Positions 1,017 through 36,874 of a stretch of DNA of 64,000 bases are shown here, in pieces. The stretch lies in NCBI GenBank assembly GCA_965113315.1, contig OZ220372.1. One strand, 5' to 3'. The notes under the pieces are model-generated. The model was given only the letters and a program-made list of their open reading frames with translations. It was not told where the DNA came from and did not search any database. Numbering within the stretch: the stretch's first letter is position 1; each line of letters opens with the position of its first letter. The stretch is from Podarcis vaucheri (taxonomy: Eukaryota). The position numbers and the translations under genes were made by a program.

Positions 1017-1390
1017 CCCTCCCTTCTACATATTGCCTGGAATGGGGGTTTGATTGATAATAAAAGTCAGTAGAGCCAACTGGTCCCCAACCACACCTCC
1101 CCAAGAGAACAGTGTTTATTCTAACTCTATCTAAGAAGTGTGAGATAAAAATAAAACAGTTCATGTTACAAATAAAATGAGGAAACATTTTCATATTGCC
1201 AAGCACAACCTTTTTATACATTAGGGAACCCAATGTGTGCGTTGTTTCTGTTGGTAAGTGCTTGGTGAGTCCAAGATACCCTTAGAAATCTTAAGCCAGC
1301 ATTTCAGGCACTGGTGAACTATTGCTGCCAACTGGAAAACTGAGGCAATATGTGTAGCTATTAAGAGAGGCTAAAAATATATGACTAGTC

Positions 1391-1526
1391 CAGGCATAAG
1401 CACTCTCGGCCCTCCAGACGTTTTGGGACTACAACTCCCATCATCCTTAGCTAACAGGACCAGTGGTCAGGGATGGCGGGAATTGTAGTCTCAAAACATC
1501 TGGAGGGCCGAGTTTGCCTGTGCCTG
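1391..1526. mobile_element. Non-autonomous hAT-type MITE (squamate GGGACTACAACTCCCATCATCC family)
   Basis: CAGGCA...TGCCTG termini, near-palindromic body, same family as 14543-14678. Confidence 0.8.
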
Positions 1527-2490
1527 TAATCATTCATATACACCTTTGCAGACAGCGCTTATTCCATTTCAGTGTGAAGACCAACACGTGAAGAAACTGC
1601 TAAATTTCTCCCCCTAGTGACTACAGAGATTTAATCATTTATGAGCCATTATGAGAGAAGGCTTGGAAATTGTCGCCCTGTCTATCCAAGCCCTAACTTC
1701 AGTTTTCCATACACATCTTAAGACGATAATTTTTAAAAGCAGGGAATAAACCCCAGTGAATATGGTAGCGTCTACTTCCAAGTAAATCTGCAGAGGGTTA
1801 CACTATGTGGTTATTTCCTCACCAGTTCATATTCTTACATTGTCCCACTAAAAGGTATGGAAAGGCAGGGTAGTGCCTAAGGCAAAGTCTACTGAGACAT
1901 GACAGATTCCATCATAATTCTTCTACTCACCCCAGCAAAGATAAAGCACTGTTAATTCACTTAATCTCCTATCCCAGGCACCTCTACTGCTTGTGCATGG
2001 AGATTTATTGACCATTTCCTTTAGTCCATCATACTCTAGGCTTTTCTGGGATATCAAAAGGAATTTACAGCCTATGGAAGTTAAATAAGCTGCAAAAAAA
2101 AGTGCTCTCCTTTGTCACTTTGTATTAGGCTGCCTCACACCTATCTGTTACCTCTTAGCTATGAGGGCAGGACTTTGGGACAGAAGTCCAGAACCTCACT
2201 CAACAGAGTAAGCAAGAAGACTGCCAAACATAGCAGGCCTGACTGACCACCTTTTGAAGTAGAATCAGAGTAGGGGGAAACCTCAAAGGTCATCTGTGCC
2301 CCTGCCAATACAGATAATCCACATAACCATCAAAAGAGCCTATCAGCAGCCTATCAGACTGCTATGTCTAGAGATTAAAATTACCTTTTTATTTAAAAAA
2401 AACAACTTTTGCTCAGTTTTCCAGCTTCAACTGCTAAGAAGGGAAATTGCTTCAATCAACTAAATCCTTAAGGAGCTGGAAGTTTATTGG

Positions 2491-11149: not shown

Positions 11150-11950
11150 AGTTCACATCAAATAACAAGGAAATATCATTCTGGATTGAGAAAGCTCCAT
11201 TGGAATGTCAGCACTCAGCTGCAGCTTTTACCACTTTGAAACAAACATGCAAAAACCAAGCCTGGTTCTGTTCAAAAAATTTATTCTATTCCACCAAAGT
11301 AAATGGAGAAACCTACCCTTGATAATGGCTAGTGTATTCTCCAAAAGAAGGAAAAGTCTCCTGTTTTGGTGCAAACTTTTCTGTAACCAAACTACCAACT
11401 ACAGCTTTAGCTTCTCTTGGATTTAATAATTGACATCACACTTTTCTTTTTCAAACCCACAAAAATTCTAAAAATCATATGAACTCTCTGCTAACATACT
11501 TAACAATAAAGTGTGGTCAAATGCTCACATCAAAACTCTGACAGCAAATCAAAGCAGAGCAGGATTACTGGAGGCACGTACTTCAGCGAGTTATTGCAGT
11601 GATTTCCCTTTTGGCAGAATGTGGCTTGGCATTTAGGGGAGACAATGAAATATTTGGTTCACCAAGCAATAGTAATGTTCTTGGATTGCTTGAATTAATT
11701 GCCAGAGCTGATCCCTTCCTGTGTGCTCACATAAATCAGTATGGAGGCAAAGGCTCTGGTCAGTCATCATGCTTATGCAAAACCATATGTGAAGAGGTTA
11801 TCCAGTTGATGGTTAATACAGTTCGAGAAGCAATACTGAGTGACATCAAACAGGCAAGTTATTTTAGTTTATCAGACAGTTCAACCCCTGATGTTTCCTA
11901 TATTGATCAACTTACTGTCATTGTTAGAGATGCTTCTCCTAGTGATGGAT
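11150..11950 (+). pseudogene. Decayed hAT transposase (ZMYM1-like / DUF4371 type); the host element may begin near 10080
   Basis: ORF 11599-12033 reads LAECGLAFRGDNE...GLLELIARADPFL..H...EEVIQLM...IKQASYFSLSDSSTPDVSYIDQLTVIVR. An upstream zinc-finger-like WLVYS...C...LF segment is broken by stops and frameshifts. No C-terminal dimerisation domain is visible. Confidence 0.85.
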
Positions 11951-13327
11951 TTCACTGTTACAGGCCCCCACTCCATTATTATGTTCAATTTCCATGTCCA
12001 CCAAGGAAAACATACAAGAGAGCTGAGCTGTAATTGGGTACCAGGGCATCCAGTTCTAACATTAAATATCACCAGAAGATGTAGCTCTATCAACCTCACA
12101 TATTCTTCCTGTAACTGTTTAATCTTATGTGTTGTCTATGTGCTTCCCACCTCATCTGAAACCCATTACTTCATGATCTGTTCTTAATGACTAATACAAA
12201 TAATTGGACCTTGCCCTTTTTTTAAAAAGTTCGTGGTACATTCACTTATGTCTCTGCCCACAGTGGTATTTCTGAAGGCTCAGTGTGATTCGCTCGCTGA
12301 GATTTCAAAGATGTTGGATGGATGACTCGTTCTTCTAAATTTGTGTAGTTCTATGTTATTAAAATGCAATGCCCAAATTAAACATTTAATAATTCTGTAA
12401 TGAGAATGAAAAGTCCATAATTATTTGTGTTGACTAGCAAATCTACTGGAAGGTTGCTTCAAAAGCAAAACAAAAGGAAAGGAAAGGGAAAGGTCAGTCC
12501 CAACAAACAAACAAAGGAGCAGGAATACCAAGAAATTGCCCCAGCTAAAAAACAGAATAATCACAGAGCTATTAATTATAGACCTTATTCTATATTGAAT
12601 GGTAGTGGAAAACATAATTTTGTTGTTTTTGCAGTTATAACAATATGAAGAATGCATAGAAGAAAAGCTACACCTTTGTAAATGCCATAACTGGAGTCTA
12701 TCAAACAGAGTAGTTGGGCATTCTTGAACTGAACCTGAGAGCCTATTTCACTCTTTGCTTTAATCATGGGCATTTATTTTGCAGAACATACCAACACAAT
12801 TTCAAACTGCAATTAAATTTAAAAAGTTAATAAATCTGGCAATTTCTATAAGTCTGGAATTAAAAATGTAAAACATTTACAAAATAAAGTAAAAGATAAA
12901 AGCCATCTCAGTTGTCGCAGAAAGTGAGTCTCGTCCAGGAAAGGCAAAATGTAATGTACTCACCCTGGGTCTATCTCAGTAAGTGCTCCAATCAATTAGT
13001 GCATAAATACACATCGAACAAAATTACAGCAGAAACCACTGTGATATCTACTTTAACTAATGTACTGGGATAAAAGGGCTTCCAAGATGTTAGTAAATAG
13101 TTAGGAAAACTATTCCTGAGTCCTGACCAGCATTTGGTAACAGGGTGATCAGATGAGAACAGGACTCCAGCCTTAATAGTTGTTTAGAAGAGAGAATTGC
13201 AGCAGATGTAGCTTATCATTCAAAAATTCCCTCTTCAATACAGTGAGAGGTGCAAATAGTCTTGTACTCTCTACACCCTTCCTAGTAGAAATGGCTAACA
13301 AGTCATAGACATGAGCATTCTTTAACA

Positions 13328-13450: not shown

Positions 13451-14542
13451 TTTCAGACCATCTGAGGGTCACAAATCAAGAACTGAGATATGCCCCCTGC
13501 AATGACTGATAAATAACATCCCATACACACTAAGTAAATCTAATTCTAAATTGTCTTTCAGAATGTAAGGATGTACTTGTACTATTCAGGCCTCTCTTTG
13601 CAAGTCTTTTGCCTCAAAGTCTGTTCAGTTGTATATTTGTGATCTTTTTCCCCATTGTATATCAAACAATAATAATACCCATCAGTTTGGGGACTCTGCC
13701 CACCAAAATGTCGTGTATCCTCCTCCTTCCTGCTTTCTCCTTTCGAAAGCTTTGCTTTTTTATTATCATCCCTCCCTAGGTCCTTTTGTTTACCCCTATC
13801 TAAGATCAACCTGTGGTAAAAAGTTCAAAGAAAGAAAGTGCTCCCCCATACCCTTCTCATGCAGATGTGAAAAAAGCTGCTCTTGGTTAGCTTCCCTCCT
13901 CCGCACAACTATCAAAGTGACAGAAACGGAGGGCAGGGCTCCAATAGGAAAGGCTTAGCCAATGGCACCCAGAAGTCCTTCTGCCAACTACATCCCTCTG
14001 GGATATTAAAGCAGTGGCTTCACTGCCATCAGTGCTGCCACCACAAAATTACTTAATGTGTGTGTAACATAGAGCAGCAGCAGTGAGCCAGCACAGAAAT
14101 CACACAGGATCCCTCATTATCTTGGCTAAAGGAGAGCTGTAGGGCCAAACTTTCCCTTCCCAAACCTCTGCCCTTTCAGCAGTAAATAGATTATTCCCTC
14201 CCGCCTTAAGGGAAGCACTGGCAATAAGTTTTAACTGCAGTTAGCATTAACTGGGGTTCACATGTGAAACCAACATTAGATTATGACTTCAAATCTCATA
14301 GTAACCTCCATCGAAAAGTGGAGCCAGCTTTATACCTTGACTATACTTAATGCAGGGAAAGGGGGATCTACAGTACTCCACAATTCTACAGCAGGCTCAC
14401 AAAGGCTGCAGTTCTAATCCCACACACATAGGAGTTTACTTCAAAGTAGATTGGTTAAGACTGCAGGCACTGTTGCTTAACTATTCTTCATGCAGCATCC
14501 CAGTGGCAATAAAAGGTGCTAACAGGAACTGAAAGACTATGC

Positions 14543-14678
14543 CAGGCTTCCTCAACCTCGGCCCTCCAGATGTTTTGAGACTGCAGTTCCCATCATCCCT
14601 GACCACTGGAAATGCTAGCTAGGGATCATGGGAGTTGTAGGCCAAAAACATCCGGAGGGGCGAGGTTGAGGAAGCCTG
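14543..14678. mobile_element. hAT MITE with a perfect 8-bp TSD
   Basis: TIR CAGGCTTCCTCAACCTCG / CGAGGTTGAGGAAGCCTG; GACTATGC at 14535-14542 and 14679-14686. Confidence 0.92.
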
Positions 14679-15260
14679 GACTATGCTATGGTGTATGGTG
14701 CTTTTGCGGGGGTGGAGTTTCTGTATTAATATCCTACCTCATATGTCCAGGGCCGAATCCTAGCACTGAGAACAATGTATGAAGTTTACCCAAATAACTT
14801 TCATGATAAAATTTGTCATGTAAGTCCCAACCTTCTGCCCTGCTTCCCCCTCCCCACCCCTCTGCTTCTAAAGTGCCACACCTCTTAGTTACAAGAAATA
14901 CCAGAAGGGGGAAAGTATGACAAATGAAAGCAATACACCAGTTCTGCAGTATTTTTCAACCAATCTAGCATTGGAACCTACATTAAGGGAAATACTTCTA
15001 ATAGCTTCTCAGGACAGAACTTATCTTTACTCAGAACCATTTCAGCCTAACTGATTTTTATCTGCACAGTATTAGCTGAGCTATTTAACCCCTAATAGTT
15101 GACACGGCATATTACAAGCAGTGGCATTTTAAAAACATGTAAGTTGAGTGGGGCACTTGCAAGAGACAGGGTTGGCCAAGTGGTTGTTAACTCAGGTCTT
15201 ACCGGGGTTAATAGCAACTCTAATTTATATTAATAGGTATCAACTACTCAGTATTAAATT

Positions 15261-18001: not shown

Positions 18002-19019
18002 GGACAGTCAATATCTTATGTAATTGTTCCACTGTCTGCCTGTATCTTGATAAAATGTGTGTGTTGTTCAGTATCATAGTGCAGAACTGCACTGGTGACA
18101 TTGTATTTCACTAATAAAGATCAAGTAGGTGACAGTTATTCAAGCATTTATTAGATAATTGTTTATCAACCTCAGCCCCCATCTGAAAAGTGCAAGTAGG
18201 GTTCTTGTAAGTCCCCACCCCATTCTGCGATATCAACAGTGGACTACATTACAAGGCTGTCATAGTATCTCTATTATTAAAAGTGGATCATATTAAAATA
18301 GATTACATTACAAGGTTCACATAAACCCATCAGTCTTGTATTTACCCCATCCCCACCACCCCCATCATGCAGTATGGGGATGTTAAACTACCCCATAATT
18401 CAAGGTTGCCATAAGCTCATAGCTCGGCATCAGCCCCTCACTCCTCATAACGTGGTATCTCTTTCTCATTCGCTGCCTCTCTGTTATATGAGAACATTAA
18501 TATTAGTTTCCTTCTTCCCTCCTAGTATAGCATTTACAGAGCAATTTTGATTGGGGCAGGGGTGGAATCTTCATCACATTTTCCCCACACAGGACCTGAG
18601 TTTGGAAAAATCATTAACTTCTGTTTTTGCTTATTCTATATATAGGCAGTAAGGGGGGGGCACTCTGCTGCCAAATCACTGCAACACGATCCTAAGAAAA
18701 ACCTACCACATTTACCCTTCTAACAAAAGAAATCTATGCCATCAAAAATAACTAGGAATTTCAGTTTTCATAGAAAGAAACTGTCAGTCAAGAACTTCCT
18801 TGTGTTTATGCTTTTCATTCCTAGTAAGCATTAAGCGGTACTCCTCTTAATGCTTACTACAGAAATAAATATTAACATGTTTACTTTATACAAACTGTAG
18901 GTAGAAAAGATCAGAAATTGAGCTGCTATATAGAACCAGGGTGTTTCTCACTGTGCACCCTAATCCCATAAATTTTATTGCCATTGTACTTAGGAAAACA
19001 GCTGAACAGTCTTACATAT

Positions 19020-19247
19020 ATAGATAGGTAGCCGTGTTGGTCTGCCATAGTCAAAATAAAAAAATTTCTTCCAGTAGCACCTTAAAGACCAACTAAGTTA
19101 GTTCTTGGTATGAGCTTTCGTGTGCATGCACACTTCTTCAGATAATATCAGATAGTATCTGAAGAAGTGTGCATGCACACGAAAGCTCATACCAAGAACT
19201 AACTTAGTTGGTCTTTAAGGTGCTACTGGAAGAAAATTTTTTTATTT
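19020..19247. mobile_element. Short Penelope-like element (PLE) insertion with an inverted terminal segment and a 12-bp TSD
   Basis: AGTCTTACATAT at 19008-19019 and 19248-19259; GGTAGCCGTGTTGGTCTG and TAAGGTGCTAC PLE terminal motifs; perfect 80-bp inverted repeat 19065-19144 / 19156-19235. Confidence 0.85.
19155..19192 (+). ncRNA. Minimal type I hammerhead ribozyme motif (PLE-associated), with a mirror copy on the minus strand at ~19108-19144
   Basis: GTAT-CTGAAGA-A-GTGTG(CATG)CACAC-GAAA-GC-TC^ATAC: core CUGANGA...GAAA...UH, stem I GUAU/AUAC, stem II GUGUG/CACAC, minimal stem III. Confidence 0.75.
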
Positions 19248-20229
19248 AGTCTTACATATGTTTGCATTGTTGTGTGCACATGTTTACTTGAAAGTAAGTC
19301 TCACTTGTGAGTTCATTAGGATCTACTCCCAATGTAAACATGCACAGGTTTGCATCCTTAGTTGCATAGGTTGGAGTCAGATTTCTCTTTCAAATCACAG
19401 CCTCCTCTCCTTTATTTGAGAGAAAAGTAGTTAAAATGGCCATTTGTGCACTGTAGCAAGTCTTCCTCAGACTGAGCCAGTTGAGTTGGCACTTTCCCTG
19501 AAATAGTTACTTGTGGAAATGGAGATAAGATTTACCTTTCTTCCATAGTCCATGAACATTTCCTAATGAAGTCTGCGTTGCAGACAAATGATCAGAGCAA
19601 ACTGTTTCCTGTTTGTTTTTAATACAATGCTGGAGAGCTGCTTACAAGAGGTCCATTGTTACAAAAACAGAAAATATAGAATAATCAGAAGGAATATTTG
19701 AGCAAATATTAATTATGAAACACAGGGTTTCCATACAAGAAACTGCCCGTATCTGTAGCAACTTTCTGCATAGGATATCTAGGAAATAGATTGTAACAAG
19801 CTAATGGATGGTACCAAACTGTTTTTAAGTAGAGGGAAACATTAAAAATATTTAACAGCTTTTACTGACACTCCTAACAGCCATTGTGTGTGTATGTATA
19901 TATATCTCTCTCAACACACAGAGGAAATCAAAATAATCCTCTATGGCACATTGGAGTTGGAGATTGTGACTTGCCCCAAACCACCTAATGTAAACAATAT
20001 TGTATCTGTTGTACCTGAAGACTAAGAATTATGGCAGGGTGTTTGTTTGTTTTTAAAGGTTTTACATAAGCATGTGCAACCACAAGAAAATATTAATGCA
20101 GAAGCCAGGATAATGTATTTCCCAGTGCAGGTGATGCCCTTCAAAGATAATCATTTAGGCCGCAATAACATTTGCCACCCTCATAAAACCTAATGTGGGT
20201 TGTTGTTGTTTTCATTTCCCAACAATTAT

Positions 20230-20879: not shown

Positions 20880-21016
20880 CAGGGGCAAGGGCGTCTGGTC
20901 CTTCCGATGCTGCTGGACTACAGCTCACATCATCCCTGAACACTGGTGATGCCAGCTGGGCCTGATGGGAGTTGGAATCCAACAACATCCGGATACTCAC
21001 AGGCTCCCTATCCCTG
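20880..21016. mobile_element. hAT MITE, same family as 14543
   Basis: CAGGGG...CCCTG termini and GGACTACAGCTC..CATCCCTG / GATGGGAGTTG core. Confidence 0.7.
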
Positions 21017-36092: not shown

Positions 36093-36660
36093 AGAATCAT
36101 AGAATCATAGAATCATAGAGTTGGAAGAGACCACAAGGGCCATTGAGTCCAACCCCCTGCCAAGCAGGAAACACCATCAGAGCACTCCTGACATATGGTT
36201 GTCAAGCCTCTGCTTAAAGACCTTCAAAGTAGGAGACTCCACCACACTCCTTGGCAGCAAATTCCACTGTCGAACAGCTCTTACTGTCAGGAAGTTCTTC
36301 CTAATGTTTAGGTGGAATCTTCTTCCTTGTAGTTTGGATCCATTGCTCCGTGTCCGCTTCTCTGGAGCAGCAGAAAACAACCTTTCTCCCTCCTCTATGT
36401 GACATCCTTTTATATATTTGAACATGGCTATCATATCACCCCTTAACCTCCTCTTCTCCAGGCTAAACATGCCCAGCTCCCTTAGCCGTTCCTCATAAGG
36501 CATCGTTTCCAGGCCTTTGACCATTTTGGTTGCCCTCCTCTGGACACGTTCCAGTTTGTCAGTGTCCTTCTTGAACTGTGGTGCCCAGAACTGGACACAG
36601 TACTCCAGGTGAGGTCTGACCAGAGCAGAATACAGTGGCACTATTACTTCCCTTGATCTA
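36093..36660 (-). mobile_element. Young 5'-truncated CR1 LINE with an uninterrupted ORF2 C-terminus
   Basis: ORF 36177-36641 [20 protein letters not shown]...[11 protein letters not shown]...RRLRGDMI...; (AGAATCAT)3 tail. Confidence 0.95.
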
Positions 36661-36874
36661 GAAGCAATCTGGACTTCTTTTTTCCAACATTTCCATTGCC
36701 TATATATATATTTATTGTATGGTTATTTATTTCTTTATTTTCATGTGTTCAAAAGTATGAGGTTCACATTGTGATCCTCATTGCATGCTGTTGGCCCTAC
36801 ATAACTGTCTGATTACCTAACTTGAGTCAGTACATAAATATTTTGATTTTCATAACTGCTTTAAGTTTATTTAT

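What the first reader, a model, noticed from the sequence alone, without database searches (positions are those of the whole stretch)
19008..19259. Self-complementary hammerhead ribozyme cassette in the GRIN2B intron
Seen: a 228-bp insertion with a perfect 12-bp TSD contains a mismatch-free 80-bp inverted repeat with an 11-nt loop. Each arm carries a minimal type I hammerhead core (CUGAAGA - stem II - GAAA GC UC^), so both strands encode one. The plus copy has a 4-bp stem I; the minus (GRIN2B-sense) copy has 3 bp. Known: Penelope-like elements carry minimal hammerheads that are thought to cleave as dimers. Inference: the insertion is very young. In the GRIN2B pre-mRNA the antisense arm is transcribed first and should lock the ribozyme inside an 80-bp duplex, which is also a potential ADAR/Dicer substrate. 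Such self-inactivating inverted copies may be preferentially tolerated in introns.
Basis: partly seen in the sequence, partly recalled or inferred. Interest (0 to 1): 0.7.

Follow-up and report, generated by a model that had tools for sequence, protein, structure and literature searches.

The report
Penelope run-off hairpin marks RNA start
This hairpin is a recent, probably functionless insertion of a Penelope-type jumping gene, one of at least 756 near-identical hairpins in this genome; such short copies stop a fixed distance after a TATA-like box in two unrelated families, which likely marks where the element's RNA begins.

Summary
It is not special. It is the shortest form of the known Penelope-like-element (PLE) insertion (pLTR, inverted copy, 33-nt tail), from a young Neptune-type family: 12,903 exact arm matches, at least 756 such hairpins, and an intact 910-aa RT/GIY-YIG parent copy. 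The site looks empty in 2 of 3 DNA runs, so it is young. The 'locked ribozyme' follows from head-to-head geometry on either strand; intron preference was not testable. The addition: 51 of 100 arms stop 3-8 nt before the hammerhead, 29-34 nt after a TATA-like box. In an unrelated Poseidon-type family, whose TATA lies 28 nt further out, 27 of 100 arms stop 31-36 nt before the hammerhead, again 29-34 nt after the TATA; only 1 stops at 3-8. The stop follows the promoter, not the ribozyme. These stubs are therefore likely run-off cDNAs of the uncleaved mRNA leader, primed from both cut strands. No RNA start was mapped. The scan noted such hairpins before in other genomes.

The parts
19008..19019 (.). 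Target-site duplication, left copy (12 bp)
   Evidence: 12-13 bp is the modal TSD, 28 of 51 hairpins; contigs of two other organisms align to the flank and stop at 19019
19020..19052 (-). PLE tail (+89..+121 from hammerhead C3), on the long arm only; holds the start codon of the parent ORF
   Evidence: ORF of L319 starts in this segment; tail as defined in PMC8557442, PMC11167929
19020..19144 (-). Long arm: pLTR 3' part from -3 to +121
   Evidence: 99-100% identical to the top 40 genome hits over 123-125 nt
19109..19144 (-). Minimal hammerhead, minus copy: C3 at 19141, predicted cleavage after 19112, 3-bp stem I
   Evidence: cleavage not tested
19145..19154 (.). Junction filler: 3 nt plus a repeat of the 7 nt that end the left arm (19138-19144); likely templated end-joining
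   Evidence: sequence; similar slippage repeats at other junctions
19155..19247 (+). Short arm: pLTR 3' part from -4 to +88, no tail
   Evidence: 3' ends are bimodal: 46 of 100 at +80..+99, 42 of 100 at +120..+134
19155..19192 (+). Minimal hammerhead, plus copy: C3 at 19159, predicted cleavage after 19188, 4-bp stem I, extra A before G10.1, palindromic stem II, AGCU stem III
   Evidence: cleavage not tested
19248..19259 (.). Target-site duplication, right copy (12 bp)

Best explanation
The element is a young head-to-head insertion of two short end-pieces of a Neptune-type Penelope-like retrotransposon, likely made when the element's enzyme copied the uncleaved leader of its own mRNA from both strands of one staggered cut and ran off the RNA's 5' end. 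Shown: parent family, arm asymmetry, TSD, copy numbers, positions of the 5' and 3' ends. Inferred steps: (1) transcription starts about 30 nt after the pLTR TATA-like box, 4-7 nt before the hammerhead core; (2) the GIY-YIG domain cuts both strands about 12 nt apart; (3) each 3' end primes at one of two internal sites (+120 or about +88), as shown in vitro for an anole PLE; (4) both cDNAs stop at or near the RNA 5' end after 90-125 nt; (5) their ends are joined with microhomology or templated filler; gap filling makes the TSD. The copy lacks the TATA box, so it is predicted to be dead on arrival. The ribozymes are passengers, predicted to be held in the duplex in any read-through RNA.
For: Parent: L027 continues from the same 124 nt into a GIY-YIG domain; L061 has RVT_1 plus GIY-YIG; L319 is pLTR - intact 910-aa ORF - pLTR. 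Abundance: 12,903 exact 20-mers at -3..+16, 756 hairpin centres. 5' stop: 51 of 100 positional arms end at -3..-8; 8 of the 49 that pass end in the next 30 nt; TATA-like first T at -37. Test predicted in note 64, sent in the same turn as the search and before any end was mapped: Poseidon-type family, TATA-like first T at -65; 27 of 100 arms end at -31..-36, 4 of 63 in the next 30 nt, 1 of 100 at -3..-8. Both windows are +29..+34 from the first T. No end at the cleavage site: 0 of 60 partner arms at +28..+32. Two primings: in 20 of 39 polarised insertions the short arm reaches further 5' while only the long arm has the tail. One source: marker 68A is on both arms in 10 of 10 hairpins; 8 head-to-head pairs among 100 listed arms share the 0.9% variant, about 0.4 arms expected (counted). 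PAc cuts and extends both strands, starts at two sites that bound the tail, and does not need hammerhead cleavage (PMC11167929).
Against: No transcription start was mapped; RNA reads of a relative gave no start peak there and are mostly host read-through. The peaks are at -4 (20) and -6 (17), both G, and only 2 are at the best initiator base A(-7). The TATA call is by eye against a recalled consensus and has one mismatch; conservation across 56 related copies does not single it out. 18 of 60 partner arms stop inside stem II (+8..+21), so structure or microhomology also ends arms. One locus (L172) has arms that differ at marker 68. Samples are the first 100 matches on one contig, selected on a hammerhead 20-mer. 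Drosophila Penelope has a TATA-less promoter with an intron before the hammerhead (PMC2377424, PMC4209133), so the rule may not be general.
Confidence: 0.75

Rival explanations
1. Self-priming or fold-back: one strand is made, folds back near the hammerhead and copies itself; the tail difference comes from later trimming by the endonuclease (self-priming on an antisense template as proposed in PMC3846280).
For: Arms share variants far above chance; palindromes or short microhomologies sit at many joints; 10 of 39 insertions have equal 5' ends and 9 have the long arm further out.
Against: In 20 of 39 neither arm contains the other, which target-primed fold-back cannot give without added trimming. 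Single-arm copies stop at the same place. Long inverted pairs differ by hundreds of bases at the centre (L062, L072-L074).
Confidence: 0.12
2. The 5' stop marks something other than the transcription start: a 3' splice site (CAG at -8..-6 after a pyrimidine run) or a pause at the ribozyme.
For: Pyrimidine run plus CAG precedes stem I; in Drosophila Penelope an intron ends at the 5' end of helix I (PMC4209133); some arms stop in stem II.
Against: No constant exon sequence lies upstream of short arms; no skip joint was listed in 4 RNA runs (weak); in the second family the stop is 31-36 nt from the ribozyme and keeps its distance from the TATA-like box.
Confidence: 0.08
3. A non-autonomous hairpin element that is transcribed and copied as a whole hairpin, or a MITE-like palindrome.
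For: 87 loci share one identical junction; in the positional sample 12 of 12 arms with marker 68A were short.
Against: Junctions are mostly unique, and the modal one occurs with and without subfamily markers and in both polarities; marker 68A is also on long and full-length copies (8 of 32 arms pass the TATA); the window's junction is unique among 51; no A-to-G or T-to-C cluster in the body of 319 arms (1 diverged arm reached the threshold of 3, at its edge).
Confidence: 0.04
4. A retained regulatory cassette acting on GRIN2B pre-mRNA (locked ribozyme, ADAR/Dicer substrate), with hairpin copies favoured in introns.
For: Probably inside the GRIN2B unit; very stable duplex on both strands. Retrozyme copies are reported depleted in Xenopus introns (10.64898/2026.07.22.740005), so selection on genic copies is conceivable.
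Against: Apparently absent in two close relatives; one of at least 756; the geometry locks both strands regardless of gene; minimal PLE hammerheads are inactive as monomers or without protein (PMC4209133, PMC11167929), so there is little to silence.
Confidence: 0.03

Closest known systems
Canonical EN+ PLE insertion: pLTR, adjacent inverted 5'-truncated copy, 30-40-bp tail (PMC8557442 Fig. 2 legend; PMC3846280)
   Same: Head-to-head inverted copy, tail on one end only, TSD, hammerhead in the pLTR; a TATA plus initiator was noted in a rotifer pLTR.
   Different: Here both copies are only 93-125 nt, and the ends are not random truncations but cluster 29-34 nt after a TATA-like box. PMC3846280 reads the junctions as self-priming.
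Neptune clade of EN+ PLEs (definition in PMC8557442)
   Same: RT, CX2-5CxxC linker, C-terminal GIY-YIG in the parent ORF.
   Different: No tree was built; the insertion bias for microsatellites mentioned for Neptune is seen only at some loci.
PAc, Poseidon element of Anolis carolinensis (PMC11167929)
   Same: Two RT start sites bounding the tail, both strands cut and extended, uncleaved RNA as template.
   Different: Other clade; ORF start is in stem II there and in the tail here; no 5' stop or promoter is mapped in its main text.
Minimal hammerheads (min-HHR) of metazoan PLEs (PMC4209133)
   Same: Short helix I, extra nucleotide between 9 and 10.1, G10.1-C11.1, palindromic 15.2-16.2; dual motifs on opposite strands were already reported.
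   Different: Stem II here is a perfect 14-nt palindrome; activity untested.
Non-LTR retrozymes (10.64898/2026.07.22.740005)
   Same: Gene-less, hammerhead-bearing, pLTR-derived.
   Different: Those are tandem head-to-tail repeats; this is a dispersed head-to-head copy with a TSD.

Membership tests
EN+ Penelope-like element (family of origin) | Single ORF with RT and C-terminal GIY-YIG endonuclease, contiguous with this sequence | tested here: met
   Pfam RVT_1 E 5.5e-12 and GIY-YIG E 2.9e-05 in L061; 910-aa ORF between two pLTRs 97-98% identical to the window arm in L319
EN+ Penelope-like element (family of origin) | pLTRs from partial tandems, inverted 5'-truncated copy, 30-40-bp tail at one end | tested here: met
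   L319 partial tandem; 62 of 100 arms have an inverted match nearby; 33-nt tail in the window
Neptune clade | CX2-5CxxC linker between RT and EN | tested here: met
   Cx4CxxC before the GIY-YIG domain in the ORFs printed; absent from the second family's ORF
Neptune clade | Grouping with Neptune RTs in a phylogeny | not tested
   no reference sequences fetched
min-HHR of PLEs | Core CUGANGA...GAAA, NUH site, helix I, extra nt before 10.1, G10.1-C11.1, palindromic 15.2-16.2 | tested here: met
   sequence and descriptor scan against features listed in PMC4209133
min-HHR of PLEs | Self-cleavage as dimer or with protein | not testable with these tools
   needs in vitro assay; no genomic or read end at the predicted site
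Rfam hammerhead families | Covariance-model match | tested here: not met
   no hammerhead family among 13 matches at E<=1
Non-LTR retrozyme | Tandem head-to-tail repeats | tested here: not met
   single head-to-head unit with TSD
Self-propagating hairpin element / MITE | Copies share fixed ends and a fixed centre | tested here: not met
   ends asymmetric; the commonest centre is in 10 of 51 hairpins, the window's in 1

The most novel reading that the evidence does not exclude
Ultra-short PLE copies are not random truncations but complete cDNAs of the mRNA leader. The enzyme primes from both cut strands at two sites in the 5' pLTR of an uncleaved transcript and runs to the capped end. Genome sequence alone then maps PLE promoters to within a few bases, shows the hammerhead is not cut in the integrating template, and explains why hammerhead-only stubs dominate vertebrate PLE copies.
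Probability: 0.65. Interest if true: 0.55.

Novelty: new member of a known kind. Interest (0 to 1): 0.38.

Why it matters
The locus itself matters little. How PLEs transpose and what their hammerhead does are open questions (PMC8557442, PMC11167929). If the short copies end at the RNA start, thousands of genomic stubs give a free record of the reaction: promoter position, two RT start sites, a 12-13-nt staggered cut, one source for both arms, and an uncleaved ribozyme. This makes exact predictions for 5' RACE and for the existing in vitro system. It also means at least 756 near-perfect hairpins of about 90 bp lie in this genome as possible dsRNA sources.

Tried and rejected
Rfam: no hammerhead hit; the miRNA matches reflect the generic hairpin. 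Run search: no RNA holder listed. RNA reads of organism A, 4 runs: 84-90% run on into unlike sequence; no start peak at the predicted start or cleavage site; fragmented libraries of another species cannot decide this. The A>G excess in those reads was not taken as editing: multi-copy, other species, and also seen in DNA contigs. X21 had no reads on the unique flank, so intron status is unshown. The idea that marker 68A defines a hairpin master was dropped. Exact count of the upstream 20-mer (3,438) against 12,903 overstates the drop because older subfamilies differ there; the positional sample was used instead. One search had its gap one base short (6 odd matches), uninformative. (bacterial promoter scan) is irrelevant. 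The first Pfam scan of the second family used too short a piece; L286 gave RVT_1 E 1.9e-15 and GIY-YIG below cut-off. One search crashed midway and was rerun. Dropped rows: 13 of 51 hairpins not alignable without gaps; 5 of 44 insertions without clear long/short arm; one search collapsed identical contexts to 83, recounted as 100, where 2 arms stopped by an indel at -43 were counted as long. Literature searches showed no paper tying short-copy ends to the start site; subscription papers (Arkhipova 2006, Lunse 2017, not held) were not seen. The text supplements of PMC11167929 had no hits, but its Fig. S2 coverage plot is a picture I could not see and may show the same 5' step.

Full report
Observation. 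The TSD is 12 bp (19008-19019, 19248-19259). The arms 19065-19144 and 19156-19235 match without a mismatch around an 11-nt loop, and folding is far beyond shuffles (z -24.7). Each arm has a minimal hammerhead: C3 at 19159 (+) and 19141 (-), predicted cuts after 19188 and 19112, stem I of 4 and 3 pairs. Rfam has no hammerhead match. Positions below count from C3 = 0. The unit is asymmetric: the left arm runs -3..+121, the right -4..+88, leaving a 33-nt tail on the left.

Host context. The window is G000:C29:42160001-42224000 of a 1.6-Gb genome. That it is a lizard is my recall of similar repeats, not a call. The first coding exon of GluN2B lies 44 kb away on the minus strand, and a CpG island lies on the other side of the hairpin. 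A 5'-UTR intron is therefore likely but unshown. In DNA contigs of organisms B and E the flank aligns with 10 and 5 substitutions in about 720 nt and stops at the last TSD base while the contig goes on for 280 and 1,274 nt. This is what an empty site gives, though the letters beyond were not displayed. The third run has the insertion and no differences, and may be the assembly's own source.

What it belongs to. The top 40 genome hits to the long arm are 99-100% identical. Some run upstream into a GIY-YIG domain. Longer copies encode RVT_1, a Cx4CxxC linker and GIY-YIG, the Neptune layout in PMC8557442 (passages read). L319 is an intact copy: partial upstream copy, pLTR, 910-aa ORF starting in the tail, pLTR. 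Exact counts: 12,903 arms with the 20-mer at -3..+16; 756 hairpins with this centre and a gap of at most 13 nt. In the first 50 of these plus the window, TSDs are 12-13 bp in 28 of 51, and 17 of 38 alignable hairpins have identical arms over 76 nt. An inverted truncated copy with a one-sided 30-40-bp tail is the described PLE insertion (PMC8557442; PMC3846280, passages), and paired hammerheads on opposite strands were noted in PMC4209133 (parts 1-2 of 4 read).

Where the arms end. In the first 100 arms on contig C1, 3' ends are bimodal: 46 at +80..+99 and 42 at +120..+134. This matches the two RT start sites that bound the tail in the anole element PAc (PMC11167929, parts 1-2 of 4 read, whole main text). 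5' ends are not spread out: 51 of 100 lie at -3..-8, and only 8 of the 49 that pass stop in the next 30 nt. Long copies show a TATA-like box with its first T at -37 and an initiator-like CA at -8/-7 (consensus recalled). To separate 'RNA start' from 'ribozyme', I used a second, unrelated family found 30 kb away (L204; RT plus GIY-YIG without the linker, Poseidon-type; 11,511 arms). Its TATA-like box starts at -65, so a start-site stop was predicted at about -35..-26 (note 64). Found: 27 of 100 arms stop at -31..-36, 4 of 63 in the next 30 nt, and 1 of 100 at -3..-8. In both families the window is +29..+34 from the first T. None of 60 partner arms starts at the predicted cleavage site; 18 start inside stem II.

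How the hairpin forms. In 20 of 39 polarised insertions the short arm reaches further 5' while only the long arm has the tail, so neither is a copy of the other; 10 are equal and 9 are the reverse. Yet the arms come from one source. Marker 68A is on both arms in 10 of 10 hairpins, with one discordant locus elsewhere (L172). The window's arms share a variant found in 110 against 12,349 arms, and 8 pairs among 100 listed arms share it, where about 0.4 arms are expected (counted). Junctions often hold short repeats of the arm ends, as here. PAc cuts and extends both strands and uses uncleaved RNA (PMC11167929). The simplest reading is priming from both strands on the leader of one source's mRNA, run-off at the 5' end, and end-joining. 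Shown: anatomy, counts, end positions. Inferred: the start site, the two primings, the joining. Arm-to-arm conversion could also give shared variants.

Folding of growing transcripts shows the duplex forming as the second arm appears, so the ribozyme would be locked. This holds on both strands of every head-to-head copy and needs no selection. Minimal PLE hammerheads show little or no activity alone (PMC4209133; PMC11167929; PMC6765202, passages). Intron preference could not be tested without an annotation; the one related report finds retrozyme copies depleted in Xenopus introns (10.64898/2026.07.22.740005, abstract and first part of Results). Editing and small RNAs remain open: the RNA runs were of another species and multi-copy, and 319 genomic arms show no editing scar in their body.

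Against my reading. No RNA start was mapped. The peaks are at two G residues, not at the initiator A. The TATA calls are by eye. The samples come from one contig and were selected on a hammerhead 20-mer. Drosophila Penelope has a TATA-less promoter and an intron there (PMC2377424, passages). PMC3846280 reads such junctions as self-priming, which trimming could reconcile with the data.

Novelty. The insertion type is known and the locus is one of hundreds. A pLTR TATA/initiator was noted in a rotifer (PMC3846280). Seven searches showed no paper linking short-copy ends to the start site; key subscription papers and one supplementary figure were not seen. Earlier notes of this scan describe the same hairpins in other genomes and suggest an RNA start; I had formed the idea in note 27 before seeing them. 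The two-family TATA test is what this report adds. Interest 0.38; new member of a known kind.

Noticed in passing
L204:8430-9690 (G000:C29:42148430-42149690): Second PLE insertion between the hairpin and the GRIN2B coding exon: Poseidon-type, inverted pLTR plus tail, in a (TA)n tract; family of 11,511 exact arms, strongly tied to (TA)n. Its pLTR has a TATAAATA box on the antisense strand overlapping the sense TATA-like box.
   Followed up: yes
L319 (G000:C25:3431300-3436200): Intact full-length Neptune-type copy, 910-aa ORF between two pLTRs that share three subfamily variants; a short upstream ORF starts in hammerhead stem II.
   Followed up: partly
L149, L237, L240: The same hairpin insertion (same TSD and junction) at three places with 95-100% identical flanks: segmental duplication after insertion.
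   Followed up: partly
window 1378-1540, 14542-14679, 20906-20989: Three related older palindromic repeats without a hammerhead (self-match 76-77% for the first two), MITE-like.
   Followed up: no
window 18822-18859: 17-bp inverted repeat with a 4-nt spacer 150 bp from the insertion; present in all three DNA runs.
   Followed up: no
L028 (G000:C17:7033-10156): A hairpin copy of the family inserted within telomeric (TTAGGG)n repeats.
   Followed up: no
L160, L162, L023, L026: Short arms in direct tandem or with repeated 5' fragments at the junction, suggesting repeated template jumps at the RNA 5' end.
   Followed up: partly
L073:2900-3120: In run X23 the ORF-end region is covered about 7:1 by one mate direction, consistent with sense transcription of long copies in that sample of organism A.
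   Followed up: no
window 11542-12030 and 36180-36722: Open frames that look like a decayed hAT-type transposase piece and a CR1-type LINE end (recalled likeness, no search run).
   Followed up: no
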